Below are positions 33,722-60,340 of a DNA stretch of 64,000 nt, one piece after another. Where the stretch lies: the NCBI GenBank assembly GCA_964530615.1, contig CAZHAR010000010.1:17151-81150 (forward strand), read 5' to 3'. A model generated the notes under the pieces. That model ran no database searches and had not been told where the DNA came from. It saw nothing but the letters and a program-made list of their open reading frames with translations. Made by a program: the position numbers and the translations under genes. The stretch is from an uncultured Planctomycetota bacterium. Its GTDB lineage: Bacteria; Planctomycetota; JBBTDB01. Every line of letters starts with the position of its first letter. The first letter of the stretch is position 1.

Positions 33722-33867
33722 AAAAAACTCGTTTCTCTGAGTTTGACTCCTCAAAAATCCGTTCTTAGAATACTTTAAATTTGTTGTTTTCTCAAATTCG
33801 TTTCACATATGCTCGCAGAACAAAAAAGATTTTAAGTATTTTTTCGTCGGTTTTATGGAGCTTTATT

Positions 33868-34818
33868 ATGCACATTAAAAAACTTCTCCTCCTTTTGATT
33901 CTTTTTTCGACCGCAAATTGGGCCGAAAATTTCATTCTTCACTCTGGAACTTGTATTCAGGGAACCGTCATTAAAGAAACAGAATTTTCGATCTTTATTG
34001 ATTTAGGATATACCGTTTTCGAGCTTCCTAAAAAAGAAATTGCGCAAAGGATCGAAGAAGAAAAATCAACGACTCTTCAAACCAATGAAACCGTTTCGGA
34101 GCAAGGGCTATACACCGAAAAAGAGTTTCCAGCTTCTTCAATCCAGAAATTGGTTCAAGAACATGGAAGCGGAGTCGTAAAAATTATGTCTCCGGGAGGG
34201 CTAGGATCAGGCTGGATTATTCATCCAGACGGTTATGTGATCACGAATCAGCATGTCATTACAGGAGAACGATTACTCTCCGTTACCGTTTACGAAAAAG
34301 GAGAAAAAGGACTTGTCACCGAAAAATTTGATCAGATTAAAATTATCGCCATGAATCCCGGTTTTGACTTGGCTCTTCTAAAAATAGAGCCTCCGAAACC
34401 TCGAAAATTCGCCTATGTTTATTTAGCGCCTTACGACCTCTTAAAAGAAGGAGATACGGTGTTTGCGATTGGAGCCCCGCTTGGGCTTGATCGTTCCGTT
34501 TCTCAAGGAATTGTCTCTAATCGAAGTCGAAACGTAGATGATAAGCTTTATATTCAAACCACGACCGCAATCAATCCCGGAAATTCGGGGGGGCCCTTAT
34601 TCAATCTTAAGGGTCAAGTGATTGGGGTCACGAATATGAAAATGGGTGGCTTCATGATCGAAGGCTTAGGGTATGCCATTCCAGTACGTTATGTTAAAGA
34701 ATTTTTACTCCATCGGGATTCTTATGCCTTTGATAAGCAATCGCCCAACGCGGGATATCGTTACCTTCCTCCTCCTAAAAAAGGAGAACCGGAATTGGCC
34801 GAACTGTCTAAAGAATAA
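33868..34818 (+). CDS. Secreted trypsin-like serine protease (S1C, HtrA/Do-like catalytic domain, no obvious PDZ)
   Basis: A signal peptide is followed by ITNQHVI (His), DLALLKI (Asp) and NPGNSGGPLFN (Ser), which are the catalytic triad motifs. Confidence 0.7.
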   Translation: MHIKKLLLLLILFSTANWAENFILHSGTCIQGTVIKETEFSIFIDLGYTVFELPKKEIAQRIEEEKSTTLQTNETVSEQGLYTEKEFPASSIQKLVQEHGSGVVKIMSPGGLGSGWIIHPDGYVITNQHVITGERLLSVTVYEKGEKGLVTEKFDQIKIIAMNPGFDLALLKIEPPKPRKFAYVYLAPYDLLKEGDTVFAIGAPLGLDRSVSQGIVSNRSRNVDDKLYIQTTTAINPGNSGGPLFNLKGQVIGVTNMKMGGFMIEGLGYAIPVRYVKEFLLHRDSYAFDKQSPNAGYRYLPPPKKGEPELAELSKE

Positions 34819-38984: not shown

Positions 38985-40232
38985 TCACGCTGTAAACAGG
39001 GTCCCTTTGGACAAGCAATGGCTTAACTTACGATAAACATGTCGCAAATTTTCTCGCGAAAGGTCGTTATTAAGCGCCTTAATAATGCGAGTCGAGAGTG
39101 TGCCCTGATTAAAAATGATATCTAGGGCCGGTTTCCAGCGTTGTGCAAAACGATCCTGATCTTTTTGAAAAAGACGATCCGTGAGTTGTTTCCAAACGTC
39201 TCCGGCTGTACAAGATTTAGCAGAAGAAATTCCTAGAGTTTGTAAATAAGAAATATCGGAAATAACTGTATTTTCTGCGTCTTGAATACAAGCAAGGAAT
39301 AAAGGTTCAAGCGCTTCAACCGGCCAGGATTTTTGTTTTTCGTAAGAAATCCATTCTTCGCTAACGAGGGCTTTTAAGAGTTGAACAATCAGCGCCATAA
39401 TCGAGAGATCGGCGAGCGGGCACTCTTGAATATCTAAAATACGGATTTCAATTGCGTAGCGATCGAACCGGACAATGGCTCCACGAGAGTTGAGCCATTC
39501 GTAGCGGAGAAGTCCTTTCGGATCATAAGGTGCGATATCGTTCCAAATGCGGTGGAAAATTTTTTCTTCATACTCGCGACGAGTAAAGACTTGTTCCGGG
39601 ATAATTTTTCCGGCGATAGAAGGCACTTTAATCTGATTTTTTCGATAGATATCGAGCCGAGTATCCCGTTTCCCAGAGAGTTTTTCTTCCATGACAGGAG
39701 AACTTGCGGAAAGGGCAGGGAGAATCGGGAGAATGAGGCGAATAGCGGCATGAAGTCTTCCGAGTTCTTCATCATTAGCGAAGGGGAGATTTAAATGAGT
39801 ACTTTGAAGGTTAGAGAATCCATGATGTCGGCAATTGAAGATGCGGTCGTAGGTTTCATAAACTTCATTATAGCCATGGGGCCATAGTTGCATTTCTTTA
39901 GTGGGGTTCATCCATGGATGCATCCCGCTCCCCAGAAGTTGGCCATGTTTGGAGGATAAGATCTGATTAATTTCGGCAATACTCGTTTGAAATTTTTCGG
40001 GAAGTCCCTCTAATAGTGGCGAAGGGCCATTGGTTTTCAGTTCAATTAAGTGAAGAACAAGTTCATTAGACCAAGCGATAGGGCCACGTTCAACATCTTC
40101 GACAAATTCTCCGGCGATGCTATATAAAATCTGATCGGAAATGGGGAGAACCGAGAGGGTTTCATTATGGACAATCATGTATTCCATCTCGATTCCATAA
40201 CCTTCGAACAAGTGAAGGAATTGATCGCTCAT
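38985..40232 (-). CDS. GCS2-family carboxylate-amine ligase (YbdK-like glutamate-cysteine-ligase family 2)
   Basis: GIEMEYMIV corresponds to YbdK GIELEMQVV, GSGMHPW to GGGTHPF, and LILPILPALSASSPVMEEKLSGKRDTRLDIY to [30 protein letters not shown]. Confidence 0.8.
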   Translation of the reverse strand: MSDQFLHLFEGYGIEMEYMIVHNETLSVLPISDQILYSIAGEFVEDVERGPIAWSNELVLHLIELKTNGPSPLLEGLPEKFQTSIAEINQILSSKHGQLLGSGMHPWMNPTKEMQLWPHGYNEVYETYDRIFNCRHHGFSNLQSTHLNLPFANDEELGRLHAAIRLILPILPALSASSPVMEEKLSGKRDTRLDIYRKNQIKVPSIAGKIIPEQVFTRREYEEKIFHRIWNDIAPYDPKGLLRYEWLNSRGAIVRFDRYAIEIRILDIQECPLADLSIMALIVQLLKALVSEEWISYEKQKSWPVEALEPLFLACIQDAENTVISDISYLQTLGISSAKSCTAGDVWKQLTDRLFQKDQDRFAQRWKPALDIIFNQGTLSTRIIKALNNDLSRENLRHVYRKLSHCLSKGTLFTA

Positions 40233-40238
40233 AAAAAA

Positions 40239-41720
40239 TTACCTTCTTTTATTGCGTTTTCCCTCTTTCAATTTAATAATGCGATTCAGGAAAACTTCCA
40301 TAATACGATTGTATAAATTCTCTTTAGTGGCTAAATCTTCTACGTCCCCGTCAATATTAGGATTATCATTAATTTCAATCACATAAAATTTTCCGTTCAC
40401 TTCTTTTAAATCGACTCCATAAAGACCATCGCCGACGAGATTTGCGGCCTTTGTTGCCACAGAGATCAATTTTTTTGGAGCCTTTTCTATGGCGAATGTT
40501 TCGGCACCCCCATGGAATCCTTTTTCATTTTCTTGTTTGCTCCAGTTGAGAATCTGCCAATGTTCTTCGGCCATAAAATATTTGCAGACATAAAGAGGTT
40601 TTTGGTCAACGATTCCAACGCGCCAATCAAACGAAGTGGGCAAAAATTCTTGAATCAGAATCAAATCCGATTTTTGAAAGAGTCGATCTAATTCGCGGGC
40701 GAGTTGTTCTTCATTAACGACTTTCATGACTCCTAGCGAAAAGGAACTATCGGGTTGCTTAAGAATACAGGGGAATCCGATGGTTTCAGTGATAGTCGTC
40801 AATTCTGTTTTTTTGTGAATAATGAGGGTTTTGGGGGTTAGAATTTCATGTCGACTCATTAATTCGGCCAAATACACTTTATTTGAGCATTTGAGAATAG
40901 ATTCCGGATCATCCATAACAACGAGTCCTTCGGCTTCTGCGCGTTGTGCAAAGCGGAAGGTATGATGATTGACTTTGGTCGTTTCTCGAATAAAGAGTGC
41001 ATCGAATTCGGCCAAACGGCCGTAATCATCTTTACTAATAAATTCGGTAAACAGTTCCATTTTTTCCGCCGCTTTAATAAAGCGTTTCAAAGCGTCCGCA
41101 TCGGAAGGAGGGTGAGCCTCAGATTCATTCACTAAAATAGCTAAATCATAACGATAGGCCGCTCGTTTTTGACGACCGGAGCGCCGAAGAAAATATTCTT
41201 GAGCAAATTCAACGATATAGAGTCGGTGTTCTTCAGAAATTTCATCGGTTGGAATAGGGCCTATACTTTGTAAGTACCATTGTCCATCGAAAGCAAATTG
41301 AGCTCGTAGGAGAGGCGCTTCAAACTGATTAAAGAGTTGTAAGCTCAGACGATCGTATTTTTTCGCCATATTTTTCCCGAAATAAATACTGAGCGTAAAC
41401 TCTTTAGATTGAATAGGCGCTAAGATTTTTTGAATTAATTCATCCAGATCCTCGGAAACGATTCGAATAATAGCTTGAGATTTGAAGTCCTGGATTGTAG
41501 AAACACTGGGAATCGCACGATGTCCTCGCGCCGCGGCTAAAAGAGATACATAGTATCCTATGCTTTGATAACGATAAGAACGGCACAAATTAAAGACTTT
41601 TGCGCCTCGTATTTTGTGATATTCTGTATTAGTGATGTAACTTTTTGCCGCAACAATTTCAATTCCGTCCAACTTAAATGGCCATTCGGTAGGATTATCT
41701 ACAATAATGAGGGTCGGCAT
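40239..41720 (-). CDS. RimK-type ATP-grasp ligase with an N-terminal ~200 aa domain of unknown function
   Basis: The C-terminal ATP-grasp region reads ...GFPCILKQPDSSFSLGVMKVVNEEQLARELDRLFQKSDLILIQEFLPTSFDWRVGIVD...YGVDLKEVNGKFYVIEINDNPNID. The N-terminal domain resembles what I recall being described as the RimK-like ATP-grasp N-terminal (RLAN) domain; that recollection is from memory only. A 6-nt gap separates it from the GCS2 gene. Confidence 0.75.
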   Translation of the reverse strand: MPTLIIVDNPTEWPFKLDGIEIVAAKSYITNTEYHKIRGAKVFNLCRSYRYQSIGYYVSLLAAARGHRAIPSVSTIQDFKSQAIIRIVSEDLDELIQKILAPIQSKEFTLSIYFGKNMAKKYDRLSLQLFNQFEAPLLRAQFAFDGQWYLQSIGPIPTDEISEEHRLYIVEFAQEYFLRRSGRQKRAAYRYDLAILVNESEAHPPSDADALKRFIKAAEKMELFTEFISKDDYGRLAEFDALFIRETTKVNHHTFRFAQRAEAEGLVVMDDPESILKCSNKVYLAELMSRHEILTPKTLIIHKKTELTTITETIGFPCILKQPDSSFSLGVMKVVNEEQLARELDRLFQKSDLILIQEFLPTSFDWRVGIVDQKPLYVCKYFMAEEHWQILNWSKQENEKGFHGGAETFAIEKAPKKLISVATKAANLVGDGLYGVDLKEVNGKFYVIEINDNPNIDGDVEDLATKENLYNRIMEVFLNRIIKLKEGKRNKRR

Positions 41721-41829
41721 ATTATTTTTTTAGTATCCCTTAATCAGAAGAAAAAATAGGTTTTGTTGATGAATTTAATTTAGATGTATTTAATTTAAAC
41801 ACTTTCAGAAAGGAAGAAAAGAGAGAATT

Positions 41830-43242
41830 TTAAGAGAACGAAAAAGATTCATTCATTTTAGGGATATAAATTTCTTTTAAATCCATTGTTTCCTTTAGTT
41901 TTTCTGCAAAAGCCGTCGCGGCAATTTCTTCTCCATGAATAAGAAATGTTTTTTCCGGTTTTTTTTTGAGAGAGTGGGTCCACCTCAATAAATCATGTTG
42001 GTCCGCGTGTCCGCTTAAACTAGTAAGCACTTCGACTTGAGCTTTGAGCTTATAAAATTCTCCAAAAATTTTGACTTCCGGTTGTTGTTCCCAAATATAA
42101 CGGCCCAGAGTATTCGGTGCCTGCCATCCCGTAATCAGGATGGTATTTCGAGCGTCCTCAATCCGATACTTCAAATGATGTAAAATTCGTCCGTTCTCCA
42201 TCATTCCGCTAGCACTAATAATAATCGCGGGCTCTTTTAAGTGGTTTAATTCTTTCGATTTTTGTACCGAAGAAACATAATGGACTCCCGGAAAATCGAA
42301 AGGATTTTGATCTTCATCTCCTAATAAAAAATTCTGGAGTTCAGAATCATAGAGTTCTGGATGAAGCAAAAAGATTTCGGTCGCGCGAATCGCCAAGGGG
42401 CTATCGATATAAATGGGTAGAAAGGGAATCTTTTTTTGAGTGTGTAATCGATGAAGTAGATAAAGAATTTGTTGCGTTCGTTCTATAGCGAATGCGGGAA
42501 TCAAGAGACATCCTTGTCGCTCATAAGTTTGCGAAACAATCCGTTGTAATTCTTTTTCTAGATCCGCGAGTGGCGGGTGAATACGATTGCCGTAAGTGCT
42601 TTCAATCAAAAGGATATCGGCTCCTTCTGGAACTGTTTTTGGATCGCGAATGATGGGGAGTCCGGGACGTCCTAAATCTCCTGTAAAAACCAGACGAATT
42701 TCTTTTCCAGATTGGTTTTCGTGAATATCGAGGAGGGTGATAGCGCTTCCTAGGATGTGTCCCGCATCGATAAAAGTGAGGGTGATTCCGGGAAAAATTT
42801 CCAGTTTTCGATCATAAGGGAGCCCGATAAATTGTCTCAAGGATTGAAATACATCTTCTTCTGTATAAAGAGGCTCAAAAAGATTCTTTTTTTGTTTTTC
42901 TCGTTTACGATTGACATATTCCACGTCACGCTGTTGGATTTTAGCACTATCTAAAAGCATCACTGCCGATAAATCGCGTGTGGCGGCAGTGCAAAAAATA
43001 GTTCCGCGAAATCCTCGTTTGACGAAAGAAGGGATATTTCCGGAGTGGTCGATATGGGCATGAGAGAGGATCACGGCATCTACCGTTTTGGCATCGCAGA
43101 AGCCTCTTCGATTGAGTTCAAACGATTCTTTTCGTTTCCCTTGAAAGAGGCCACAATCTAATAAAATTCGTCGGTCATTCACTTCAATTAAATGTTGAGA
43201 ACCGGTGACGGTACGAGCCGCTCCATAAAAAGTAATTTTCAT
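41830..43242 (-). CDS. MBL-fold beta-CASP hydrolase (RNA-metabolising metallo-beta-lactamase, CPSF73/RNase J-like)
   Basis: MKITFYGAARTVTGSQHLIE...ILLDCGLFQG...LSHAHIDHSG carries the HxHxDH motif II. The C-terminal beta-CASP motifs D, H and H are appropriately spaced (TGDLG, HASGH-like). Confidence 0.75.
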   Translation of the reverse strand: MKITFYGAARTVTGSQHLIEVNDRRILLDCGLFQGKRKESFELNRRGFCDAKTVDAVILSHAHIDHSGNIPSFVKRGFRGTIFCTAATRDLSAVMLLDSAKIQQRDVEYVNRKREKQKKNLFEPLYTEEDVFQSLRQFIGLPYDRKLEIFPGITLTFIDAGHILGSAITLLDIHENQSGKEIRLVFTGDLGRPGLPIIRDPKTVPEGADILLIESTYGNRIHPPLADLEKELQRIVSQTYERQGCLLIPAFAIERTQQILYLLHRLHTQKKIPFLPIYIDSPLAIRATEIFLLHPELYDSELQNFLLGDEDQNPFDFPGVHYVSSVQKSKELNHLKEPAIIISASGMMENGRILHHLKYRIEDARNTILITGWQAPNTLGRYIWEQQPEVKIFGEFYKLKAQVEVLTSLSGHADQHDLLRWTHSLKKKPEKTFLIHGEEIAATAFAEKLKETMDLKEIYIPKMNESFSFS

Positions 43243-43266
43243 ATCGCTATTCGTCTTTTCCTTGGG

Positions 43267-44685
43267 TTATCGCAAATTTTGAGAACGATCTTGCATAATA
43301 TGATATCTTTTTAAGATTCGATCCTTTGATTTTTTGACGCTCTCCATTTCTAAAATAATTAAACTATTACTAGAAGTTCTTAATTCCAGCGAGTCCTGGG
43401 TCTTTTCAAGTTTTTCGACAAAATCCTGAATGTGACGAGGTTTTTCGCCATTCACGGTCGAAATACATTCATTATAAAGATTCTCATAACCGACATTAAT
43501 TTCATCGGAAAGAATTTGTGTGACCAGAATCACCTCTTCCCGATCTTCCGTACAGTTTCCAGAATAATATTGATAGAGAAGTTCAGGTGGAGCTTTATCC
43601 CACCATTCTTCCCATGTGTTCAGGAAATTATAAGTCAGTGGCTGAAAGACGAGTCCAGCAAAAATAAAATAACTAGGCGTTTGATCATATTGGCTGTAAG
43701 GAACTAAATGTTTTAAAGGTTGAAGTTTTAGGCGAATTTTTTTAATTTTACCCTGTCGCAGAATTTTTAATTGGATGGTGTCGCCCACATACTTTTGTCC
43801 TAAAACGACATCATATCGAGTACGATAGCGATTCAGATACAAAATGGTTCCATTGTTGGCGATAGAAGCCCCTTCAATTTCTAATAGAACATCTCCCGGG
43901 TTCAGATGACCCCAGGCTGATCCTCCGTACGCCACGGTTTTAACCATCACTCCGGTCATTCCTGCTTTCATGGATAAATGTTTTCTCAGCAGAGGGTTTT
44001 CCAGTTTTTGAGTAATGACACTTAATGCAGGAACTACAGGAGATTTTTTCGAATCAATTCCTTTTAAAAAGTGTCGAATGATATTTGCGGGAACCATTTC
44101 TCCAATATTTTCGGCATGATTGAGTTTTTGGAAAGCGATTCCAGCAATTTTTCCGTCTTTAAAGACAGGACCCCCGCTATTTCCTTTATTAATAGCCGCA
44201 TCAACGGTTACGGCTAAAATTTTTCGTTGAGAATGGCTATATTGCTGAACTTCAATTCGAGAAACGACCCCCTCGGTGATTGAAATTTCTTCGCCTCCAA
44301 TCGGAAAACCAACCACGGAGACTTTGTCTCGTAAATTGGGAATCTCTCCGAGCGTTGCGGGTTCGACTTCTTTTAAAAAATCTTGATCTTCGATGGTTAA
44401 GAGCGCTAAATCACAATCATGGCAAACGGATTTCACATGCACAACGGTTTTATTCGGATCTGCATTTTTTTGAATCTTTAAAAAAGTGGAATTCGCGATG
44501 ACATGGGCACCCGTTAAAATTTCATTGGGTCGAATTAAAACACCAGAACCCGTACAATTGGCGGTCCGTAAAGATTGCCAAGGACAATCATAATCGGGGT
44601 CCTGAACGGTTGCAAAAATTCGTACCACTTGGGGATAAGAGGTTGCTTGATTTTCAGAATGAAAATTACTCAAAATGGCTTCCAA
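43267..44685 (-). CDS. Cytoplasmic trypsin-like serine protease (S1 family) with a C-terminal extension
   Basis: There is no signal peptide. ILTGAHVI (His), DLALLTI (Asp) and NKGNSGGPVF (Ser) are present, followed by a C-terminal ~250 aa domain. Confidence 0.7.
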   Translation of the reverse strand: MEAILSNFHSENQATSYPQVVRIFATVQDPDYDCPWQSLRTANCTGSGVLIRPNEILTGAHVIANSTFLKIQKNADPNKTVVHVKSVCHDCDLALLTIEDQDFLKEVEPATLGEIPNLRDKVSVVGFPIGGEEISITEGVVSRIEVQQYSHSQRKILAVTVDAAINKGNSGGPVFKDGKIAGIAFQKLNHAENIGEMVPANIIRHFLKGIDSKKSPVVPALSVITQKLENPLLRKHLSMKAGMTGVMVKTVAYGGSAWGHLNPGDVLLEIEGASIANNGTILYLNRYRTRYDVVLGQKYVGDTIQLKILRQGKIKKIRLKLQPLKHLVPYSQYDQTPSYFIFAGLVFQPLTYNFLNTWEEWWDKAPPELLYQYYSGNCTEDREEVILVTQILSDEINVGYENLYNECISTVNGEKPRHIQDFVEKLEKTQDSLELRTSSNSLIILEMESVKKSKDRILKRYHIMQDRSQNLR

Positions 44686-44743
44686 TCTTCTTTAGGGTTA
44701 TCCGGAAAGTGAATTGTTTTTGTTTTTTTCTCAGAGCTCGTTT

Positions 44744-45376
44744 TCATTTGTTTTCTGGTTTCAGTGAGGAAGAAATGATTCCCAGTCGTTCAAGAAGGCT
44801 TCGACGCAATTCATCAAAATAGATCCACCATTGATCCGGGAGAGACTTTCGAAGTTGGTGTTGATTCCAACACCGTTCTGTAAAGGCATAAGCCAGAGAA
44901 AAGTGACCCATCGCGATTAAGGATTCAATATTAGAAATTGCGTTTTTTGGGTCATCGGTTTCGTCCACAGACGCTCCTATTTCTTGTTGAAGAACGTGTC
45001 GAATGGTATCAAATTGAGAAAGTTGATGAATCTGAAGGCTAAGCGAAATTTCTTTCGGCCAAGGATTATAAGAACTATCGAACAATTGGCAAAGGATTGA
45101 ACCTTCAGAAACCGTCACTTCCAAAGAAAATTGTATATTATAGAGATCGGTGTTTTCTCCTTGAGCTTTAACTCGAAACCAAAGTTGAGAATGCTCCGCT
45201 TCCCAAATTTCTTCTCGAAGGGAGTATCCTTGCGGATGAGATGCTTCCAAATCCTGAAACGCGGTCAATTGGAAAGGAAGGCGTTCTTTTTGTTGGAGTT
45301 GTGCCGCAATCTGTTGAAAAATATCCAACATCGATTCGACAGAAATCTCGGATCGAAAATAGAGTCCTAAATTCAT
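44744..45376 (-). CDS. Hypothetical protein
   Basis: 210 aa, co-directional with the upstream protease operon genes. Confidence 0.4.
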   Translation of the reverse strand: MNLGLYFRSEISVESMLDIFQQIAAQLQQKERLPFQLTAFQDLEASHPQGYSLREEIWEAEHSQLWFRVKAQGENTDLYNIQFSLEVTVSEGSILCQLFDSSYNPWPKEISLSLQIHQLSQFDTIRHVLQQEIGASVDETDDPKNAISNIESLIAMGHFSLAYAFTERCWNQHQLRKSLPDQWWIYFDELRRSLLERLGIISSSLKPENK

Positions 45377-45397
45377 AATTTTTTGCTGTAAGACGAT

Positions 45398-45865
45398 TTA
45401 CTTCGATTCGAATAAATTTCGTATCGTATCCACCCGTTTTCGATTGACTCCAAAATCACTGTAGCCCAAACGAGAAGACGCTCGAATCTGGATTTTCCCT
45501 TCTTCCAAATAAAACTCGGTATCATCAATAAAGCCTAATAACGAAGACCGTGTTTCGACACGAATATAGTTCTCTTTTTGCAAAAGAATCGTTGCGGTTG
45601 GAATTTGTTGAATACATTGAAGCAATTTTTGACGAGCGTTCGCGATTGGACCTTGAAAAGACAAGGGTTCCACTTTTTTTTCGGAAACCTCTGTTTGCGA
45701 AGAAACACAATTCGGACGATTGGGAAGCGGAGTGAATTTACCTTCTTGTACCCCAAGACTTGGTGCCGAACTCATGGCTTTGATACCATAACGGGCTCCA
45801 AAAAACCCAATGACAAGCAAAAGAATCGCAAAACCAAACCATTGCATTTTTTTTCTCTGCACCAT
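45398..45865 (-). CDS. Hypothetical membrane/exported protein (N-terminal TM anchor)
   Basis: 155 aa with N-terminal FGFAILLLVIGFFGA. No confident family assignment. Confidence 0.4.
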   Translation of the reverse strand: MVQRKKMQWFGFAILLLVIGFFGARYGIKAMSSAPSLGVQEGKFTPLPNRPNCVSSQTEVSEKKVEPLSFQGPIANARQKLLQCIQQIPTATILLQKENYIRVETRSSLLGFIDDTEFYLEEGKIQIRASSRLGYSDFGVNRKRVDTIRNLFESK

Positions 45866-45928: not shown

Positions 45929-46468
45929 TCATTTTAATTTTCCGATTTCTTCTAACAAGTGAGTCTCTGAAAATCCGCGAATTTTTTTATTATTAATTAA
46001 AATTACGGGAACTCCTCCGCCTCCCAATTTTTTAAACTGGGAGGAATATTCGGGTTGGGTCACATCATAATCCACAAACACAACACGGTGTTTTTTTAAG
46101 AAGGCTTTTGCTGATTGACAAGGGACTCAGGTTGGAGAGCTAAAAACGACCGCTTGTACCACTCGGTCGGTTGGAAAAAATTCCGCAAATTTTTGGGCAT
46201 CAATTTCACTGACTTCCGTATTAGAAGAGCGCGTCAGAAACACAATAAGCGCAGAAAAAATAAAAAAAGAAAGGACAAGCCAAGAAATTAAATGTCCTGA
46301 ATCTATTTTTTCGAAATTTGCGGGAGTTTTTTCGAGGAAGGGCTCGGGTACAGAATTAGGATTTTCTAAAGGATCTTGCCATTGATTTTCGTTGTCCATA
46401 AGATATCTCCTGAGCGTTTTTCTAGTATTTTGGGGAAGTAAATCCAACATGAACAATACGATGGCCAA
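45929..46468 (-). CDS. Membrane-anchored glutaredoxin/thioredoxin-fold protein interrupted by an in-frame TGA at the first Cys of the redox motif. It is either a candidate selenoprotein (UxxC) or a Cys-to-stop pseudogene.
   Basis: The track ORF at 46127-46468 ends ...VVQAVVFSSPT then TGA. Reading on gives VPCQSAKAFLKKHRV(C)FVDYDVTQPEYSSQFKKLGGGGVPVILINNKKIRGFSETHLLEEIGKLK and a stop at about 45929-45931. Together these form a complete glutaredoxin fold in which T-U-VPCQSAKAFL aligns with the Grx motif S-C-PYCQRAKALL. Whether the downstream part stays in frame depends on the length of an A-run/GT-run at about 46074-46090, which I could not count with certainty. The distance implied by the ORF-track coordinates is 195 nt (65 codons), which favours the in-frame reading. 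Confidence 0.5.
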
Positions 46469-47303
46469 TCCATTTTTTGATTCTGGGAAAACGAGTACTC
46501 CACCAAATCCATTTCCAACGGTGTGGATACAAATCGAACATATGCCATTCTTGAAATAATTGAATTCTTGGATCCCAGAGCGTCAGGTTTTGAGTGTTTC
46601 GTAAGCCCCATAAGAACTGAGGAATCGGCTTTTGCATTTTAGCAACACTCGGAACCCAATTGCTTCGCCCCACTGCTCCTGGACCAATCGCTTCAAAAAT
46701 TATTTCTCCTTGGGGAAAATACGAAAGAATCTGTTGGATAAGTTGCTGAACATCTGGCGGGGAAAGGTACATAAATAGCCCTTCCGCAATAATTAAAACG
46801 GGTGATTTGGGAACCGCGATTTTTTTTAGCCATGAAAAATCAAGTACCGATTGACCCATCCATCGATACCGCTCTGTTTCTTGAAAAAAATGATGTTTCA
46901 ATTGGATCACTTCGGGTTGATCGAGTTCATACCAGAGAATCTGTCCATTATCAAGACGCGAAAAACGGGTATCCAGTCCAGCGCCTAAGTTAATCACCGT
47001 AGATTGCGGATATTTTTGGAGAAAGGCCAGAGTTTGTTGATCAATCAGGTGCGTACGAATTGCAATAGAAAGTTGAGTGGCCCAGTCCTTTTGGAACTTG
47101 GAGAAATCGTAGTTAAGAGTTTCCAGCAACTCGACCGATTTAGGATCGCGGATGATGGGTTGAGGATGCTTGGTTTCTTTAGCACGTGCCCAAAGAGGAA
47201 TTAAAAGGGTTTCGGCAACTCCGGAAAGGATGGGGTCCACTGATATTACCGTAAGTTTAACTGTTGAGTTGATCTTTAATTTTCTCGAACGCTTCATCGA
47301 CAA
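46422..47303 (-). CDS. Class I SAM-dependent methyltransferase, TcmP/LCMT (leucine carboxyl methyltransferase)-like
   Basis: VINLGAGLDTRFSRL matches the conserved NLGAGxDTR motif of this family. Confidence 0.65.
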   Translation of the reverse strand: MSMKRSRKLKINSTVKLTVISVDPILSGVAETLLIPLWARAKETKHPQPIIRDPKSVELLETLNYDFSKFQKDWATQLSIAIRTHLIDQQTLAFLQKYPQSTVINLGAGLDTRFSRLDNGQILWYELDQPEVIQLKHHFFQETERYRWMGQSVLDFSWLKKIAVPKSPVLIIAEGLFMYLSPPDVQQLIQQILSYFPQGEIIFEAIGPGAVGRSNWVPSVAKMQKPIPQFLWGLRNTQNLTLWDPRIQLFQEWHMFDLYPHRWKWIWWSTRFPRIKKWIGHRIVHVGFTSPKY

Positions 47304-51611: not shown

Positions 51612-54035
51612 TTAGCGATTTGCTTCGTTATGGAGCAATTCATCTGGAAGAGGTTTGGGGAGTCTGGAAACCATTAAAATTGGGATTAAAAGAAATGCAG
51701 AACCAATAAAATAAGGCCATTGTGAGCCAAATCGCCAAAAAATAACAGAGGCTAGAATAGGGCCCAACACACGCCCCAACGCGCCAAGAGAACGAAAAAT
51801 TCCAATCGTTTTTCCTTGGTGTTCTGCCGGCGTGTAAATGGACACGAGTGAGGTAAGACAAGGAATCGTTAAGGAAGAACCCACCGCGAGAAAGAAAAGT
51901 CCAGAATAAAGGATCCAGTTGTTTCGAGTCAAAGCAATTAGAATTAATCCGGGAACCAACGTAATCAGTCCCATTAGAGCCATTTTTCGCTCTCCGACTT
52001 GCGCGGCTTTTCTTCGGACAATTCCGCCTTGAACAATCGCGATTAAAAAACCAATAAAGATAAACATAAAGCCATTCTGAAGCGAAGTGTAGTGGAGTCG
52101 CTCAAACGCAAGAAATGTCAACGTAAACTCCATTCCAGAAAAAGCGGTAATAAATAAAAAGTTGCTCAGGTTTGTTTGATTCACTCCTTTAAACGGGAAC
52201 GGTTTAAAAAGTTGAAGAGGATTAGCTTTTCGGTCACTTAATTGTTGGCCTCGTTTTTCAGGAGGGAGTGTTTCGTTAAATTTACGATAGATCCAGAAAA
52301 AATTAAAAAGCGATAACACAAGCGCAATGAGTGCAGGCATGGAAAATGGATTGACTCCATAGACTTCCCACCCGGGAAAATAACGCAACAAATTGATTTG
52401 TGATAGAATTCCTCCAAACGCGGGGCCGATGATGAATCCGAGTGCAAAGGCGATCCCAATAATAGCCATTCCACGCGATCTGCTTTCTCTGGGTGTGATA
52501 TCCGCGACCACCGCAGTCGCCGTAGAAATATTTCCACCCATGATTCCCCCAATAAAACGCGCCAAAATCAAGAGGGTGAAACTTCCTGAAAAAAACCAGA
52601 GTCCATAACTCGAGGCAAGTCCGACGAGAGAAATTAATAAAACCGGACGGCGTCCAATCTTATCCGAAAGGGCACCCCAAAAGGGCGCGGCCAAAAATTG
52701 TAAAAAAGAATAGATGGCTCCTAAAATTCCTCCAAAAAGTACAATATGCGCTAAATGATCCGCGCTCGTGTTCCCGGGCGTTCCTGTTAGCGAAACCACC
52801 GCATTCAGCATCGTTTTAAGAAAGAAATTTTGCGGATCTTTTTCCACATAATATTTTAAAAGCTCTGGAAATAAGGGAAAAATAATCGAAAATCCGACGA
52901 GGTCCAGAAACAAAGTTAAAAACATAATTTTCAAACATTGTTTAGCGGAATCGGATAACGGAGGCGATTGCATTTTGACTTCAGGCATAGTTGTTTTCTC
53001 GATAATAGGGGAATAAAACAATTCAGAACGCTTCAGAGGGCCTTCTATCACCCAAGAAGAAAGAAATTGAGCAAATCCCTTGACCCAGGAATCTTGATCG
53101 TTCAAGCAAGGAATAAGGTACAACGATCCGCCCTTCTCCTCAACTTGCCTAGATAATTCGTGTCCAAGCTCATCAAGAGTTTCCAGACAGTCCGTTACAA
53201 AACTTGGAGAGCAAATGGCAATTCCTTTTCCGCCCTGATCTAACAAGCGAAAAACCATCTCCTCTGTGTAGGGTGTCAACCACTCTTCCGAACCAAAACG
53301 AGACTGGAACGAAAGATGAATCTGATTGGAATTCAGAGATAAAATTCGGCTTCGTAAGAGATGAAACGTTTCATAGCACTGTTGAAAATAAGGATCTTGT
53401 TTCACCATCACTCGCCGCTTGGGAATTCCATGAAATGATACGACAAGATGATCTATCGTCTTTCCTTGCATTCGAAGTGTTTCAAGAAAATTCTCAATTT
53501 GCGCCACACTCTGATCAATGAAAAATTTAGAATGATAAAAAAAGGGTAAAAATTCAAATGCTGGAACAAGGGTTCGTCGTTTCGCTTCATGGAAAAATCG
53601 ATCCAACACCGAAAGGGTTGTACTTTCAGAATATTGAGGAAACAAAGGAATCACAAGCCAAAAATCTGCAGACGATCCGGAACGCTTCTGCTGTTCCCAT
53701 TGATCCCACAGTTCATTCAGTCGAGGCACCGATAATAAAAAAACGAGATCGACTTCGATTCCTGAGGGTGCCAGTTCTTGATGAAGTTTTTTTGCGAAGC
53801 TCTGGCTCAGTTCTACCAGCGGGAAGCCAGAACCGTTCCAAATACGACGATAAAGTCGGGCCGATCTTCTGGGTCGAAACGGAAGAACAAATAGGTTCAG
53901 AATGATTTTCCAGGCTATCGGAGAAAGATCAACAACACGAGGATCTCCTAAAAATTCCTTCAGATAGCGTCGAACCGCTGAAACCTCCGGAGATCGTGGA
54001 GAGCCTAATTGAACTAAAACAATCTTGATTTTCAC
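51612..54035 (-). CDS. hemH: Ferrochelatase (HemH) fused to a C-terminal 12-TM MFS transporter
   Basis: The N-terminal ~350 aa read LVQLGSPRSPEVSAVRRYLKEFLGDPRVVD..., VVSFHGIP and QSRFGSEEWLTPYTEE, which are ferrochelatase signatures. The C-terminal ~450 aa have 12 hydrophobic helices with MFS motifs (GALSDKIGRRPVLL). Confidence 0.75.
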   Translation of the reverse strand: MKIKIVLVQLGSPRSPEVSAVRRYLKEFLGDPRVVDLSPIAWKIILNLFVLPFRPRRSARLYRRIWNGSGFPLVELSQSFAKKLHQELAPSGIEVDLVFLLSVPRLNELWDQWEQQKRSGSSADFWLVIPLFPQYSESTTLSVLDRFFHEAKRRTLVPAFEFLPFFYHSKFFIDQSVAQIENFLETLRMQGKTIDHLVVSFHGIPKRRVMVKQDPYFQQCYETFHLLRSRILSLNSNQIHLSFQSRFGSEEWLTPYTEEMVFRLLDQGGKGIAICSPSFVTDCLETLDELGHELSRQVEEKGGSLYLIPCLNDQDSWVKGFAQFLSSWVIEGPLKRSELFYSPIIEKTTMPEVKMQSPPLSDSAKQCLKIMFLTLFLDLVGFSIIFPLFPELLKYYVEKDPQNFFLKTMLNAVVSLTGTPGNTSADHLAHIVLFGGILGAIYSFLQFLAAPFWGALSDKIGRRPVLLISLVGLASSYGLWFFSGSFTLLILARFIGGIMGGNISTATAVVADITPRESRSRGMAIIGIAFALGFIIGPAFGGILSQINLLRYFPGWEVYGVNPFSMPALIALVLSLFNFFWIYRKFNETLPPEKRGQQLSDRKANPLQLFKPFPFKGVNQTNLSNFLFITAFSGMEFTLTFLAFERLHYTSLQNGFMFIFIGFLIAIVQGGIVRRKAAQVGERKMALMGLITLVPGLILIALTRNNWILYSGLFFLAVGSSLTIPCLTSLVSIYTPAEHQGKTIGIFRSLGALGRVLGPILASVIFWRFGSQWPYFIGSAFLLIPILMVSRLPKPLPDELLHNEANR

Positions 54036-57052: not shown

Positions 57053-58855
57053 TTACCGATTGCTTTCTTGAAGCATTTTTTGGAAGGCCCCTAAAGAATC
57101 GGGTGCTAATTCTTTCAGGTCTAGAAAAAGGTACTCTGCGAAAAAATTATCTTTATTTTCACAGACGAGTTGAAATAGAAAGCGCTCCACTTCTTCTTTT
57201 TTCTTCTTTAACGAAGATAAGTGGGGCGCTTTTAAGAGTGCCGCATTTGTGACACCCCACATTTTTATTAGACAAACCACTTTTTCCTCTGGTAAAGAAA
57301 ATTGCTCTAGTTTCTTTTGCTCCTGATCAAGAATGTCCCATGTTTTTACAAGGAATTGGGTATCAGAAATATCCTGAGGAATGTTTATTTTGTTTTGATG
57401 AGTCTTTCGATACATCCAGATCTGACTGAACAGAAGCAAACAGAGGAGCAAGATAAAATTCGCGCCCAACAGAAGTTGTGGATTTCGCTTGATCCATTTC
57501 AGAATTTTTTCTAGCCAACCCGAAGGCTTTGCTTTAATCGGGTATCCTTGTAAAAACAAATCTAAATCTTCCGCAAAATGACCCGCGGAGCGATAACGCT
57601 TATGTCTCAATTTCTCCATCGCTTTGAGCGTAATCGTATCCAGATCGCGATGGATTTCAGGATTTATACGAGAAGGTAAACGGGCTTCTTCCTTAAAAAT
57701 TTTTTCATATAAAAGCGCGTCTGTTTCCGCTCGAAATGGGCGCATTCCTGTCAAAACTTCATATAAACACACCCCCATAGAATACACATCGCTTTTGGCG
57801 TCTAGTTTGTCAATTTCTCCACTCACCTGTTCAGGCGGCATATAAGCGGTAGTTCCCAAAATATAACCGCTTTTCGTAAGATTTTGAGATTTTTGATTCT
57901 GATCCTTAGCCAATCCAAAATCGGTGAGTTTGGGGATGCCTTCTTTGGTAATTAAAATATTGTCTGGCTTGATATCTCGATGAATAACGCCTTCGGTATG
58001 CGCATAATGTAAAGCCTCAAGACTCTGTTGAATGACGCGAACACGGTCCCGAATCGGATGTTTTTCTTTGAGCCAATCCGCAAGTGTTTTCCCCCCTTCA
58101 ATAAATTCCATTACAAAATAATGTTCTTGCCCTTTTTGCCCGGAGTCAAAAACACGAATAATATGAGGGTGTTGTAACCGCGCGGTTGCTTGAATTTCAC
58201 GGAAAAATCGCTGGAGCGAATCTTCGGAAGCGTCACTCCCTTTCAAGAGAACCTTCAATGCAAAAGTTTGATTGAGTCCCGGATGATAGGCTCGATAAAC
58301 AATGCCCATTCCCCCACGAGCAATTTCTTCCAGAATGTTATAGTTCCCATAAATACGGTCGTCTTGTTGATATTCAATATAAAATTCCGGACGTTCTTGA
58401 GCCGAACGAATACGATAGAAATTTTGATTTTCTCCGGCGTAGGTCCAATTTCCTTGCTCCAATTCCAAAAATTCGTCAATCGTGATTTTTTTCTGTTGAA
58501 GTAAACTTTGAAGAAGAGTGCGCGCGCTTACCTTGCCTCGTGGTAAGCTATTGACCAAGTTATTGAGTTCTCCAACAGAGACTTTAGTATCTAAGAGCAA
58601 TTTTAATCCTATTTTTTCGAGCGCTTCCATTTCGGAAAGAGTCTCCGAAATTTTTTCAAGATTCAATTCGCTTGAAGCGCTCTCTTTTTCTACATGAGAA
58701 AGGGCTCGATAGGTATTCCCTAAATAGCTATAGTAGTCTTCTGAGCTAATTCCCTTAGCCTGCAGTTCTTCAGTTATTTTTTTAAAATCATCGTCCATAG
58801 TTTTTTTTCGAAACTTTAAAGAACTCGAAATTCGTTTATTGAGAACCTCGTTCAT
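57053..58855 (-). CDS. Hanks-type Ser/Thr protein kinase with a C-terminal TM helix and extracytoplasmic tail
   Basis: GRGGMGIVYRA (Gly loop), ALK (Lys), HRDIKPDNIL (catalytic loop), DFG and APE motifs are present. A TM helix LLLGANFILLLCLLLF follows. Confidence 0.85.
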   Translation of the reverse strand: MNEVLNKRISSSLKFRKKTMDDDFKKITEELQAKGISSEDYYSYLGNTYRALSHVEKESASSELNLEKISETLSEMEALEKIGLKLLLDTKVSVGELNNLVNSLPRGKVSARTLLQSLLQQKKITIDEFLELEQGNWTYAGENQNFYRIRSAQERPEFYIEYQQDDRIYGNYNILEEIARGGMGIVYRAYHPGLNQTFALKVLLKGSDASEDSLQRFFREIQATARLQHPHIIRVFDSGQKGQEHYFVMEFIEGGKTLADWLKEKHPIRDRVRVIQQSLEALHYAHTEGVIHRDIKPDNILITKEGIPKLTDFGLAKDQNQKSQNLTKSGYILGTTAYMPPEQVSGEIDKLDAKSDVYSMGVCLYEVLTGMRPFRAETDALLYEKIFKEEARLPSRINPEIHRDLDTITLKAMEKLRHKRYRSAGHFAEDLDLFLQGYPIKAKPSGWLEKILKWIKRNPQLLLGANFILLLCLLLFSQIWMYRKTHQNKINIPQDISDTQFLVKTWDILDQEQKKLEQFSLPEEKVVCLIKMWGVTNAALLKAPHLSSLKKKKEEVERFLFQLVCENKDNFFAEYLFLDLKELAPDSLGAFQKMLQESNR

Positions 58856-58951
58856 TTTCTCAAGAATGGATTATAAAAGAATGACAACAGATAAACAACG
58901 TTGTGAGGCTCTTCCCTAAGAAGCTTTTTTTTTTTAAAGTAGGAAGTTGTC

Positions 58952-60331
58952 TTGTTTCAAAGGGGGAACTCCATGACAACTGAACAAACACCGCTCCATG
59001 AAGAATCTTGTGCACAAGAAACCTTAGTGAACGAAAGCACTCCCATCATAGATTCAGTCTCTAACATTCTTCAAAATGGAATGTGTGTTGGAGATCAACT
59101 ACAATATCAAATTCAAGGACGAATCGGAAAAGGGGGAATGGGAAGTGTTTTTCTCGCGCTGAATAAGCAAACGCAAGAACAAGTAGCCATTAAATTTGTT
59201 CGTTTTTCGAGTAAGGCCTCCCCAGAATTAATGACGATTTTTCGACAAAGATTTGAACGAGAAATTGAAATTCTCTCTCGAATTGACCATCCGAACATCA
59301 TCAAAATTTTGGGTTCTGGTGTACACGCTTATAAAAATGTTACCCTTCCTTATTTTTGTATGGAGTATGTTCGAGGAGAAGCATTAGATCGCTTGCGTTC
59401 AAAAGGTTCTTTGTCTATTTCGGCGATTTTAGAAATGATTATTGCCTTATCTAACGCGCTAGCACTGATCCACCAGAAAAAAATTGTGCATCGAGATATC
59501 AAACCCGCGAACATTTTTATTACTGAATCTGGAGTTCCTAAACTCATTGATTTCGGATTAGCAAAAGTTTATGAAGAAACGGAAGACGGGAGTTCTCGAC
59601 TGACATTTTCTCAAATGATTTTAGGAACCTTCGAATTTATGGCTCCAGAACAGGGAACGAATCCGAAAGAGGTTCATCCGCAAAGTGACATTTATTCGTT
59701 AGGACACGTTCTTTACTGGCTCCTCACTGGAAAACTGGCGGTCGATACCAGTCTTTTAAGGCAATGTCTAGAAGAACGAGATTTTTCTCGTTTATTCAAG
59801 GAGTTATCGTCTCAATTAACCCGGCAAAATCTACAGTTTGACCACTTTATTGATACTGAACTACGAAATATTTGTCAAAAAGCGTTACATCTTAATCTCC
59901 AAGAACGATACGCCACAGCTAAAGATTTCGGAGACGCACTTCGCTCTTATCAATCTCACTTAACACAAAAAGAGCAATGGGAGCATCATTTTCTCTTTCC
60001 GACCTCGCAATCTCGTCCTCAGGTTCCAATTTCTATTGATATGGCAGGTTGGTTCGAAGCCCAGTTGGAACACGTCGCTCTCAAAAATGAAAATCCCTCA
60101 AGCGAAGAAGCGAATTGGGCCGAATTTGTTCCTTTTGGGAACTCTTGCCTTTTGGAAGCGAAAAAAACGATTCAGGTCAACCAACAACTCTTGAATCCCG
60201 GAGACAGTATTTATTTGCAAGACGGAGACTTTATCCAAATTCACTCCAGCACTTTTATTTATAAAAAAGCGCCAGAGGATCACTATTTTATGAATAAAAA
60301 AGAAGACGACGATCCTCCAAAAAAAATATAG
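58952..60331 (+). CDS. Hanks-type Ser/Thr protein kinase (soluble, with an unassigned C-terminal ~120 aa domain)
   Basis: GKGGMGSVF, AIK, HRDIKPANIF, DFG and APE motifs are present. Confidence 0.85.
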   Translation: MFQRGNSMTTEQTPLHEESCAQETLVNESTPIIDSVSNILQNGMCVGDQLQYQIQGRIGKGGMGSVFLALNKQTQEQVAIKFVRFSSKASPELMTIFRQRFEREIEILSRIDHPNIIKILGSGVHAYKNVTLPYFCMEYVRGEALDRLRSKGSLSISAILEMIIALSNALALIHQKKIVHRDIKPANIFITESGVPKLIDFGLAKVYEETEDGSSRLTFSQMILGTFEFMAPEQGTNPKEVHPQSDIYSLGHVLYWLLTGKLAVDTSLLRQCLEERDFSRLFKELSSQLTRQNLQFDHFIDTELRNICQKALHLNLQERYATAKDFGDALRSYQSHLTQKEQWEHHFLFPTSQSRPQVPISIDMAGWFEAQLEHVALKNENPSSEEANWAEFVPFGNSCLLEAKKTIQVNQQLLNPGDSIYLQDGDFIQIHSSTFIYKKAPEDHYFMNKKEDDDPPKKI

Positions 60332-60340
60332 GAGTTTCAG

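What the first reader, a model, noticed from the sequence alone, without database searches (positions are those of the whole stretch)
38985..45865. Co-directional run of six genes combining two unrelated amide-bond ligases (GCS2 and ATP-grasp) with a beta-CASP ribonuclease-like hydrolase and a cytoplasmic trypsin-like protease
Six minus-strand genes are separated by gaps of only 6, 109, 24, 58 and 21 nt. In transcriptional order they are:
- a membrane-anchored hypothetical protein;
- a second hypothetical protein;
- a signal-less S1 serine protease with an extra C-terminal domain;
- an MBL/beta-CASP hydrolase of the RNA-processing type;
- a RimK-type ATP-grasp ligase carrying a ~200 aa N-terminal domain;
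- a YbdK-type GCS2 carboxylate-amine ligase.

Pairings of ATP-grasp and GCS2 ligases with peptidases have been predicted from comparative genomics to make or remodel small peptides or peptide tags. This recollection is from memory of the Aravind-group amidoligase analyses, and I cannot confirm that this exact architecture was covered. Finding a beta-CASP nuclease-like enzyme and a trypsin-fold protease in the same apparent operon is not a combination I recognise. The function is unknown. Possibilities include a ribosomal-protein or peptide tailing-and-trimming module, or a peptide metabolite pathway.
Basis: partly seen in the sequence, partly recalled or inferred. Interest (0 to 1): 0.72.

Follow-up and report, generated by a model that had tools for sequence, protein, structure and literature searches.

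The report
Adjacent but unrelated genes; one ligase pair
The six genes are real and correctly identified, but they are a lineage-specific line-up of separate gene units: only the two ligases form a widely conserved pair, and the RNase-like hydrolase and the protease are ordinary stand-alone housekeeping genes.

Summary
All six minus-strand ORFs, their gaps and their domain assignments are confirmed.

- **Ligase side.** In 80 species from about 12 phyla, orthologues of the RLAN+ATP-grasp ligase sit in a cassette: C39-like cysteine peptidase (66/76), then RLAN-ATP-grasp, then GCS2 (66/72), then an FGase-family amidohydrolase (37/59). None of the 80 has a beta-CASP, HtrA, DUF1499 or hyp210 gene within 10 kb.
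- **Hydrolase and protease side.** None of 80 loci holding beta-CASP orthologues (45-64% identity) has an HtrA or either ligase nearby. HtrA orthologues at 66% and 60% identity stand alone.
- **Where the line-up does recur.** HtrA, beta-CASP, RLAN-ATP-grasp and GCS2 are adjacent only in the window's own narrow Planctomycetota lineage: two relatives, at 65-90% identity.
- **DUF1499 and hyp210.** They travel as their own pair.
- **What the window holds.** Its cassette copy is reduced to two of four genes, with no C39-like peptidase or FGase anywhere in the 64 kb. It sits behind a 109-nt, 22% GC spacer.
- **Likely function (inferred).** The ligase pair probably makes a small glutamate-containing peptide in two ATP-dependent steps.
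- **The neighbours.** They are a TTHA0252-like RNase and a Deg2/Deg9-type quality-control protease.

Interest is low. In passing: a glutaredoxin-like ORF with an in-frame TGA at its redox cysteine lies just upstream.

The parts
38985..40232 (-). GCS2-superfamily carboxylate-amine ligase (415 aa). It is the second gene of the conserved ligase pair.
   Evidence: Pfam GCS2 scores 90.5 bits. It falls below the YbdK/GshA equivalog cut-offs. Orthologues at 40-58% identity lie directly downstream of RLAN-ATP-grasp in 66/72 loci.
40239..41720 (-). RLAN domain plus RimK-like ATP-grasp ligase (493 aa). It is the first gene of the pair.
   Evidence: Pfam RLAN 163 bits, RimK 48.9 bits. The AF2 model has pLDDT 75, and its C-terminal ~300 residues match ArgX, LysX, RimK and Ddl. 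It is 51-60% identical to orthologues in about 12 phyla.
41721..41829 (-). 109-nt spacer at 22% GC, holding a 15-nt direct repeat x2 (41768-41797). It is the likely boundary or regulatory region in front of the ligase pair.
   Evidence: It has the lowest GC of all spacers in the run. The tandem repeat was found. In canonical cassettes the upstream C39-like gene abuts RLAN-ATP-grasp with a median gap of 2 nt. No terminator or strong sigma-70 match was found, so it is not proven to be a promoter.
41830..43242 (-). Beta-CASP metallo-beta-lactamase RNase (470 aa). It is a stand-alone housekeeping gene.
   Evidence: Pfam Beta-Casp, RMMBL and Lactamase_B. The closest solved structure is ribonuclease TTHA0252 (2dkf, E 6.6e-82). 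All metal and catalytic motif residues are invariant in the family alignment. None of 80 orthologous loci has HtrA or ligase neighbours.
43267..44685 (-). Deg2/Deg9-type HtrA serine protease (trypsin, PDZ, PDZ_3) with no signal peptide.
   Evidence: Pfam. PDB 4fln and 5il9 match at E about 1e-93. His, Asp and GNSGGP-Ser motifs are visible in the translation. Orthologues at 66% and 60% identity are solitary.
44744..45376 (-). hyp210, a near-orphan protein that forms a conserved pair with DUF1499.
   Evidence: No Pfam or NCBIfam family. Only 7 homologues exist among 1.84 billion representatives. It follows DUF1499 in L170 and L171. In L171 it is followed by DoxX_3, not HtrA.
45398..45865 (-). 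DUF1499 protein with an N-terminal membrane anchor.
   Evidence: Pfam DUF1499 scores 107 bits. It is paired with hyp210 in three genomes.
45929..46399 (-). Upstream continuation of the run: a membrane-anchored glutaredoxin-like ORF with an in-frame TGA (46127-46129) at the first redox cysteine.
   Evidence: Translation. The Glutaredoxin domain (45.4 bits) spans the TGA. There are weak hits to Uxx-star (seleno)protein families.
46422..47303 (-). LCM-family SAM-dependent methyltransferase. It is the furthest upstream co-directional gene, 22 nt before the glutaredoxin-like ORF.
   Evidence: Pfam LCM scores 67.6 bits. Gap.

Best explanation
The run is a lineage-specific juxtaposition of at least four separately inherited gene units, not one dedicated module.

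**Unit 1: RLAN-ATP-grasp plus GCS2.** This is the only conserved functional pair.
- It is the two-ligase core of a widespread four-gene cassette: C39-like cysteine peptidase, RLAN-ATP-grasp, GCS2, FGase-family amidohydrolase.
- The window's copy has lost both hydrolases.
- Inferred mechanism: each ligase activates a carboxylate as an acyl-phosphate with ATP and joins it to an amine. Together they would build a small glutamate-containing peptide in two steps, formally like GshA plus GshB making glutathione, or GNAT/ATP-grasp enzymes making NAAG or NAGGN.
- In the full cassette the two hydrolases would process or recycle that product.

**Unit 2: the beta-CASP protein.** It is a TTHA0252-like housekeeping RNase.

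**Unit 3: the protease.** It is a cytosolic Deg2/Deg9-type HtrA for protein quality control.

**Unit 4: DUF1499 plus hyp210.** They are a separate small pair of unknown role.

**Shown versus inferred.** Shown: gene identities, the conservation patterns and the absence of cross-association. Inferred: the chemistry of the ligase pair and independent transcription from the AT-rich 109-nt spacer.
For: - **Domain identities:**
- **Ligase anchor:** 80 species-level loci from Planctomycetota, Bacteroidota, Thermodesulfobacteriota, Nitrospirota, Gammaproteobacteria, Fibrobacterota, Spirochaetota, Verrucomicrobiota, Acidobacteriota, Omnitrophota, Myxococcota and Sumerlaeota.
  - C39-like gene upstream in 66/76, GCS2 downstream in 66/72, FGase after GCS2 in 37/59.
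  - Beta-CASP, HtrA, hyp210 and DUF1499 in 0/80. Of these loci, 72 have at least 1.6 kb and 63 at least 3 kb of upstream sequence.
- **Beta-CASP anchor:** 0/80 loci with HtrA, RLAN-ATP-grasp or GCS2. Of these, 52 have room upstream and 46 downstream.
- **HtrA anchor:** orthologues in L167/L168 (66% identity) and L169 (60%) are flanked by unrelated, mostly opposite-strand genes.
- **RLAN-ATP-grasp at 66% identity (L086):** it is preceded by a 160-aa ORF, not by beta-CASP.
- **DUF1499-hyp210 pair:** it occurs without HtrA in L171.
- **Window content:** no C39-like or FGase gene anywhere in the 64 kb.
- **Boundary:** the spacer before RLAN-ATP-grasp is 109 nt at 22% GC, whereas the canonical cassette has a median 2-nt junction there.
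- **Chemistry hints:** alternative partners in cassette variants are GNAT acetyltransferases, an AstE/AspA-type deacylase and a class-II amidotransferase. All are N-acyl-Glu or peptide-metabolite enzymes.
Against: - The order HtrA, beta-CASP, RLAN-ATP-grasp, GCS2 is kept in two relatives.
  - L170/L172 are 84-90% identical to the window.
  - L085 is 65-78% identical. It keeps the order even though its flanks differ (a thioredoxin is inserted, a different upstream gene, FGase and S9 downstream).
- The lineage that has HtrA and beta-CASP upstream is also one that lacks the C39-like peptidase.
- Gaps are short and no terminator was detected, so read-through co-transcription is possible.
- No transcript data exist.
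- The product of the ligase pair is unknown, and no experimental paper on the cassette was found.
Confidence: 0.75

Rival explanations
1. This is a lineage-specific functional operon. In this Planctomycetota clade the cassette's C39-like peptidase (and, in the window, FGase) has been functionally replaced by the Deg2/9-type protease and/or the beta-CASP hydrolase. HtrA, beta-CASP, RLAN-ATP-grasp and GCS2 would then work together on one peptide or tagged substrate.
For: - The block order is kept in L085 despite rearranged flanks, and in L170/L172.
- The C39-like gene is absent from the window and from L085.
- Gaps are short and no terminator was found.
Against: - The only supporting genomes are close relatives (65-90% identity), so the order may simply be inherited.
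- L086, the next relative at 66% identity, also lacks the C39-like gene. It has a different 160-aa gene upstream, so loss of C39 does not track with gain of beta-CASP.
- HtrA at 66% identity is solitary.
- Association is 0/80 from each of the two anchors.
- The beta-CASP and HtrA proteins are 60-65% identical to stand-alone orthologues in other phyla, which shows no sign of specialisation.
- A 109-nt AT-rich spacer separates the two halves.
Confidence: 0.12
2. This is a RimK-like protein-tailing and trimming system. The ATP-grasp enzyme would add glutamates to the C-terminus of a ribosomal or other protein, and the protease would trim the tail, as RimK and RimB do on ribosomal protein S6.
For: - RimK-family similarity of the ATP-grasp domain.
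- The RLAN domain could recognise a substrate protein.
- RimK operons with a protease are known in Pseudomonas (abstracts of PMC11957791 and PMC4741518, listed).
Against: - It scores below the RimK family and S6-ligase equivalog cut-offs: TIGR00768 82 bits against 143, and NF007764 24 against 331.
- The conserved partners are a GCS2 ligase, a C39-like peptidase and FGase, not a retropepsin.
- HtrA is not a conserved neighbour.
- No rpsF or carrier-protein gene was seen in the Pfam survey of the window.
Confidence: 0.07
3. The beta-CASP protein marks a defence or CRISPR-related system. Its best NCBIfam hit is the type VII Cas14 nuclease.
For: NF045584 (Cas14) scores 417 bits, and PDB Cas14 chains match at E about 1e-63.
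Against: - The score is far below the 800-bit cut-off, and only model positions 1-435 of 612 (the shared MBL/beta-CASP core) match.
- TTHA0252 RNase is a closer match.
- The window has no CRISPR-like repeat array.
- Apart from generic trypsin-domain similarity of the protease, there are no PADLOC hits.
- Orthologues are solitary genes.
Confidence: 0.01

Closest known systems
RLAN-ATP-grasp/GCS2 amidoligase cassette. As I recall, this is a predicted peptide-synthesis system from the Aravind-group amidoligase survey (Iyer et al. 2009, Mol Biosyst 5:1636) and the source of the Pfam RLAN family. The paper could not be opened here.
   Same: - The same two ligases in the same order and tightly coupled (6 nt here; -4 nt is the commonest gap elsewhere).
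- 51-60% identity (RLAN-ATP-grasp) and 40-58% identity (GCS2) to orthologues across phyla.
   Different: The window's copy lacks the C39-like peptidase found upstream in 66/76 loci and the FGase-family amidohydrolase found downstream in 37/59. Unrelated genes lie upstream instead.
Glutathione biosynthesis (GshA gamma-glutamylcysteine ligase plus GshB ATP-grasp synthetase), and the NAAG/NAGGN dipeptide synthetases (RIMKLA/B, Ngg).
   Same: A glutamine-synthetase-like or GCS-type ligase combined with an ATP-grasp ligase gives two sequential ATP-dependent amide bonds. GshB, LysX and MptN are among the ATP-grasp hits.
   Different: All equivalog models score far below their cut-offs. The substrates are unknown, and the RLAN domain has no counterpart in those enzymes.
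RimK/RimB ribosomal protein S6 glutamylation system.
   Same: RimK-like ATP-grasp fold, and a protease encoded nearby.
   Different: The protease here is an HtrA, not a retropepsin, and it is not a conserved neighbour. The ATP-grasp protein carries an RLAN domain and has a GCS2 partner, and it scores below the RimK cut-offs.
Thermus thermophilus TTHA0252 and CPSF-73-type beta-CASP ribonucleases.
   Same: Full-length match (E 6.6e-82), an RMMBL domain, and all catalytic motifs conserved.
   Different: Nothing notable. It is about 40 residues longer than TTHA0252.
Plant Deg2/Deg9-type HtrA proteases.
   Same: Protease plus PDZ1 plus PDZ_3 architecture. It matches 4fln and 5il9 over nearly the full length (E about 1e-93) and has no signal peptide.
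   Different: It is bacterial. Oligomeric state and substrates are untested.

Membership tests
RLAN-ATP-grasp/GCS2 cassette | RLAN domain fused N-terminally to a RimK-like ATP-grasp domain | tested here: met
   PF14401 163.3 bits (residues 25-167) and PF08443 48.9 bits (residues 279-461). The AF2 model and Foldseek confirm an ATP-grasp fold.
RLAN-ATP-grasp/GCS2 cassette | GCS2 ligase gene immediately downstream on the same strand | tested here: met
   6-nt gap. The same arrangement occurs in 66/72 orthologous loci.
RLAN-ATP-grasp/GCS2 cassette | C39-like cysteine peptidase gene immediately upstream | tested here: not met
   Present in 66/76 loci. No match anywhere in the window at E below 1; beta-CASP lies upstream instead.
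RLAN-ATP-grasp/GCS2 cassette | FGase-family (PF05013) amidohydrolase downstream of GCS2 | tested here: not met
   Present in 37/59 loci, and in L085 and L086. Absent from the window, where a convergent FG-GAP gene ends 6 nt from the GCS2 stop.
YbdK family carboxylate-amine ligase (TIGR02050) | Score at or above the curated cut-off | tested here: not met
   46.3 bits against a cut-off of 176.4. phmmer finds no PDB chain at E <= 0.001. This is a GCS2-superfamily member only.
RimK alpha-L-glutamate ligase (TIGR00768 / NF007764) | Score at or above the curated cut-off | tested here: not met
   81.8 bits against 143.4, and 24.1 against 331.
Beta-CASP ribonuclease | MBL motifs 1-4, beta-CASP motifs A-C and an RMMBL domain | tested here: met
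   Pfam. H61, H63, D65, H66, H162, D189, E214, H412 and H436 are invariant in the alignment. Matches 2dkf at E 6.6e-82. RNase activity itself was not tested.
Type VII CRISPR Cas14 | Equivalog score, C-terminal extension, and cas or array context | tested here: not met
   417 bits against 800, covering model positions 1-435 of 612. No repeat array.
HtrA, Deg2/Deg9 type | Trypsin-fold protease with a His-Asp-Ser triad, followed by PDZ and PDZ_3 | tested here: met
   Pfam, PDB matches, and the AHV, DLALL and GNSGGP motifs in the translation.
Dedicated six-gene module (conserved operon) | Components are neighbours in genomes beyond the immediate lineage | tested here: not met
   0/80 from the ligase anchor, 0/80 from the beta-CASP anchor, and solitary HtrA orthologues.
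Dedicated six-gene module (conserved operon) | Co-transcription | not testable with these tools
   Only consensus scans were possible, and they were not informative.

The most novel reading that the evidence does not exclude
In this uncultured groundwater Planctomycetota clade, the widespread RLAN-ATP-grasp/GCS2 peptide cassette has swapped its cysteine peptidase and amidohydrolase for a cytosolic cage-forming HtrA protease and a beta-CASP hydrolase. Thioredoxin or glutaredoxin-type partners may also take part: a thioredoxin gene lies between HtrA and beta-CASP in L085, and a possible seleno-glutaredoxin lies upstream in the window. This would create a new redox-linked peptide or tag-processing operon.
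Probability: 0.1. Interest if true: 0.5.

Novelty: new member of a known kind. Interest (0 to 1): 0.22.

Why it matters
As a six-gene module it does not matter much, because the unusual combination that drew attention is best explained by neighbourhood accident within one lineage.

What remains of value is the cassette itself: C39-like peptidase, RLAN-ATP-grasp, GCS2, FGase. It is conserved at over 50% identity across about a dozen bacterial phyla, yet no product or experimental study could be found. Identifying its small-peptide product would close a gap left open by comparative genomics. It could be a thiol, a compatible solute or a cofactor tail.

The window's copy shows that the two ligases can persist without the two hydrolases.

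Tried and rejected
- **Literature on the cassette.** The Iyer et al. 2009 amidoligase paper could not be opened by PMC id, PubMed id or DOI. Full-text searches for RLAN/GCS2/ATP-grasp, FGase+RimK, PF14401 and YbdK+RimK found nothing relevant. The 'already predicted' status therefore rests on my memory.
- **Missing cassette genes.** I looked for the C39-like peptidase, FGase or a class-II amidotransferase elsewhere in the window and found none.
- **Substitute peptidases.** The 160-aa ORF upstream in L086 is not a diverged C39-like or hyp210 protein. The papain-YEATS protein of L085 is not the cassette peptidase.
- **Defence or CRISPR reading of the beta-CASP protein.** Rejected.
- **RNA elements.** No Rfam family or tRNA in the window.
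- **Promoter and terminator scans.** The counts were not above the shuffled expectation, so they are uninformative.
- **Intergenic comparison.** Aligning the beta-CASP|RLAN spacer in three relatives gave too few and too closely related sequences to reveal a promoter.
- **Fold search.** The full RLAN-ATP-grasp model returned only ATP-grasp matches and said nothing about the RLAN domain.
- **SECIS-like hairpin after the glutaredoxin TGA.** No structure better than shuffled sequence.

Full report
**1. Observation**

The six minus-strand ORFs are present at exactly the stated coordinates, with gaps of 6, 109, 24, 58 and 21 nt. Profile searches confirm each assignment above Pfam gathering thresholds:
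- GCS2 (38985-40232).
- RLAN plus RimK-like ATP-grasp (40239-41720).
- Lactamase_B, Beta-Casp and RMMBL (41830-43242).
- Trypsin_2, PDZ_2 and PDZ_3 (43267-44685).

- The 'membrane-anchored hypothetical' is a DUF1499 protein.
- The 210-aa protein has no family. It has only seven homologues among 1.84 billion representative proteins.
- The GCS2 and ATP-grasp proteins score well below the curated YbdK and RimK cut-offs. They belong to those superfamilies, not to those specific families.
- The closest solved relatives are ribonuclease TTHA0252 for the beta-CASP protein (E 6.6e-82) and plant Deg2/Deg9 for the protease (E about 1e-93).
- Catalytic motifs are intact in both.

The run does not stop at six genes. 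A glutaredoxin-like ORF and an LCM methyltransferase continue it upstream with gaps of 63 and 22 nt. Runs of four to five co-directional genes occur elsewhere in the window. GC content of the region equals the window mean.

The source is a groundwater MAG labelled Planctomycetota bacterium.

**2. Neighbourhood test from the ligase side**

An alignment of RLAN-ATP-grasp homologues was used to scan one genome per species. The 80 best loci (51-60% identity) come from about a dozen phyla. I then ran tblastn with the window's proteins and with cassette proteins from a Pirellulales locus.

| Gene, relative to RLAN-ATP-grasp | Loci with it / loci with enough flank |
|---|---|
| C39-like cysteine peptidase, directly upstream | 66/76 |
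| GCS2, directly downstream | 66/72 |
| PF05013 (FGase) amidohydrolase, after GCS2 | 37/59 |
| Beta-CASP, HtrA, hyp210 or DUF1499, within 10 kb | 0/80 |

Of the 80 loci, 72 have room for a gene upstream and 63 have room for two.

Junctions in the cassette are tight. The commonest RLAN-to-GCS2 gap is -4 nt, and the median C39-to-RLAN gap is 2 nt. Variants that lack C39 and GCS2 carry a GNAT acetyltransferase upstream. Other occasional partners are an AstE/AspA deacylase, a class-II amidotransferase and an MFS transporter.

The window has neither the C39-like gene nor the FGase gene anywhere in its 64 kb.

**3. Test from the other sides**

- *Beta-CASP.* It belongs to a very conserved ~469-aa family, 61-65% identical to Desulfobulbales proteins. 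In 80 metagenomic loci with orthologues at 45-64% identity, none has an HtrA, RLAN-ATP-grasp or GCS2 gene. Of these, 52 have room upstream and 46 downstream.
- *HtrA.* Orthologues at 66% identity (L167, L168) and 60% identity (L169) are flanked by unrelated genes.
- *hyp210.* Its homologues follow DUF1499 in L170 and L171. In L171 the next gene is DoxX_3, not HtrA.

**4. Where the arrangement does recur**

- L170 and L172 come from one sample and are 84-90% identical to the window. Together they repeat the window's order: DUF1499, hyp210, a 75-aa ORF and HtrA in L170; beta-CASP, RLAN-ATP-grasp and GCS2 in L172.
- L085 is 65-78% identical. Its order is papain-YEATS protein, HtrA, thioredoxin, beta-CASP, RLAN-ATP-grasp, GCS2, FGase, S9 peptidase.
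- L086 has RLAN-ATP-grasp at 66% identity. Its order is a 160-aa ORF, RLAN-ATP-grasp, GCS2, FGase, with no beta-CASP directly upstream.

The HtrA/beta-CASP/ligase order is therefore confined to a narrow clade. That is the pattern expected from inherited synteny.

Survival of the order in L085 despite changed flanks is the one observation in favour of a functional link. I assign that rival 0.12. One caveat applies: treating contigs from the same sample as the same organism (L085 with L171, L170 with L172) is plausible but unproven.

**5. What it is and how it most likely works**

The run is a composite of four units.

*The ligase pair.* This is the only conserved module. The following is inferred from the known chemistry of the two superfamilies, not tested:
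- GCS2 enzymes form a gamma-glutamyl (acyl) phosphate and join it to an amine.
- RimK, GshB, LysX and MptN-type ATP-grasp enzymes add an amino acid, usually glutamate, to a carboxylate.
- In tandem they would make a small Glu-containing peptide.
- The cassette's cysteine peptidase and N-acyl-glutamate-type amidohydrolase, and the GNAT or amidotransferase seen in variants, fit synthesis, processing and recycling of such a metabolite. They fit protein tailing less well.

*The spacer.* The 109-nt spacer in front of the pair has 22% GC and contains a 15-nt direct repeat. This is compatible with its own regulatory region, but no promoter is demonstrated.

*The other three units.* The beta-CASP RNase and the Deg2/9-type HtrA are generic RNA-turnover and protein-quality-control enzymes. 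The role of DUF1499 plus hyp210 is unknown.

**6. Comparison with what is known, and novelty**

- The RLAN-ATP-grasp/GCS2 association is, to my recollection, already described from comparative genomics (Iyer et al. 2009; the Pfam RLAN entry). I could not open the paper.
- I found no experimental work on the cassette.
- The window holds a reduced member, with two of the four usual genes. It is not a new kind of system.
- Defence and CRISPR readings were excluded.

**7. Verdict**

The domain calls and the ligase pairing are right. The proposed module that includes the beta-CASP hydrolase and the protease is not supported. Interest is low (0.22).

The most novel reading still open is a clade-specific replacement of the cassette's hydrolases by HtrA and beta-CASP. 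Its probability is about 0.1.

**8. In passing**

The ORF at 45929-46399 encodes a membrane-anchored glutaredoxin domain that is interrupted by a single TGA exactly at the first cysteine of the redox motif (SSPT-U-VPC). It is either a selenoprotein candidate or a pseudogene. No SECIS-like hairpin was detected.

Noticed in passing
window 45929-46399 (-), TGA at 46127-46129: A membrane-anchored glutaredoxin-like ORF has one in-frame TGA exactly at the first Cys of the redox motif (SSPT-U-VPC). The Glutaredoxin domain (45.4 bits) spans the TGA. There are weak hits to Uxx-star (seleno)protein families. No SECIS-like hairpin and no homologue in the fetched loci. It is a candidate selenoprotein or a Cys-to-stop pseudogene.
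   Followed up: partly
window 41768-41797: A 15-nt direct repeat x2 (GATGAATTTAATTTA on the + strand) lies inside the 22% GC spacer upstream of the RLAN-ATP-grasp gene. It is a possible regulator binding site. It is roughly kept in the close relative L172.
   Followed up: partly
window 51612-54035 (-): A single 807-aa ORF fuses a ferrochelatase domain (residues 5-324) to an MFS transporter (residues 371-675). This is an unusual fusion.
   Followed up: no
window 6805-9258 (+): An 817-aa Suv3-type DEXQ-box RNA helicase with Suv3 C-terminal domains. The family is best known from mitochondrial RNA degradosomes.
   Followed up: no
window 57053-63568: Three adjacent Ser/Thr protein kinase genes. One (1075 aa) carries a long TPR region.
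   Followed up: no
L085 675-2513: In the 78%-identity relative, a 612-aa protein joins a papain-like (Peptidase_C1/C39_2) domain to two prokaryotic YEATS domains, directly upstream of HtrA. It is not related to the cassette's C39-like peptidase.
   Followed up: partly
L055 9511-9999, L076 2080-2637: In this variant of the RLAN-ATP-grasp system, a GNAT acetyltransferase replaces the C39-like gene upstream and no GCS2 follows. This hints at N-acetylated peptide products.
   Followed up: partly
L005-L084 (for example L045 12669-13412): An FGase-family (PF05013) amidohydrolase is a frequent fourth gene of the cassette (37/59 loci). The whole cassette is more than 50% identical across about 12 phyla, yet no published function was found.
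   Followed up: partly
window 33781-34818 (+): A second, shorter trypsin-like (Trypsin_2) protease gene lies 8 kb from the HtrA gene, on the opposite strand.
   Followed up: no
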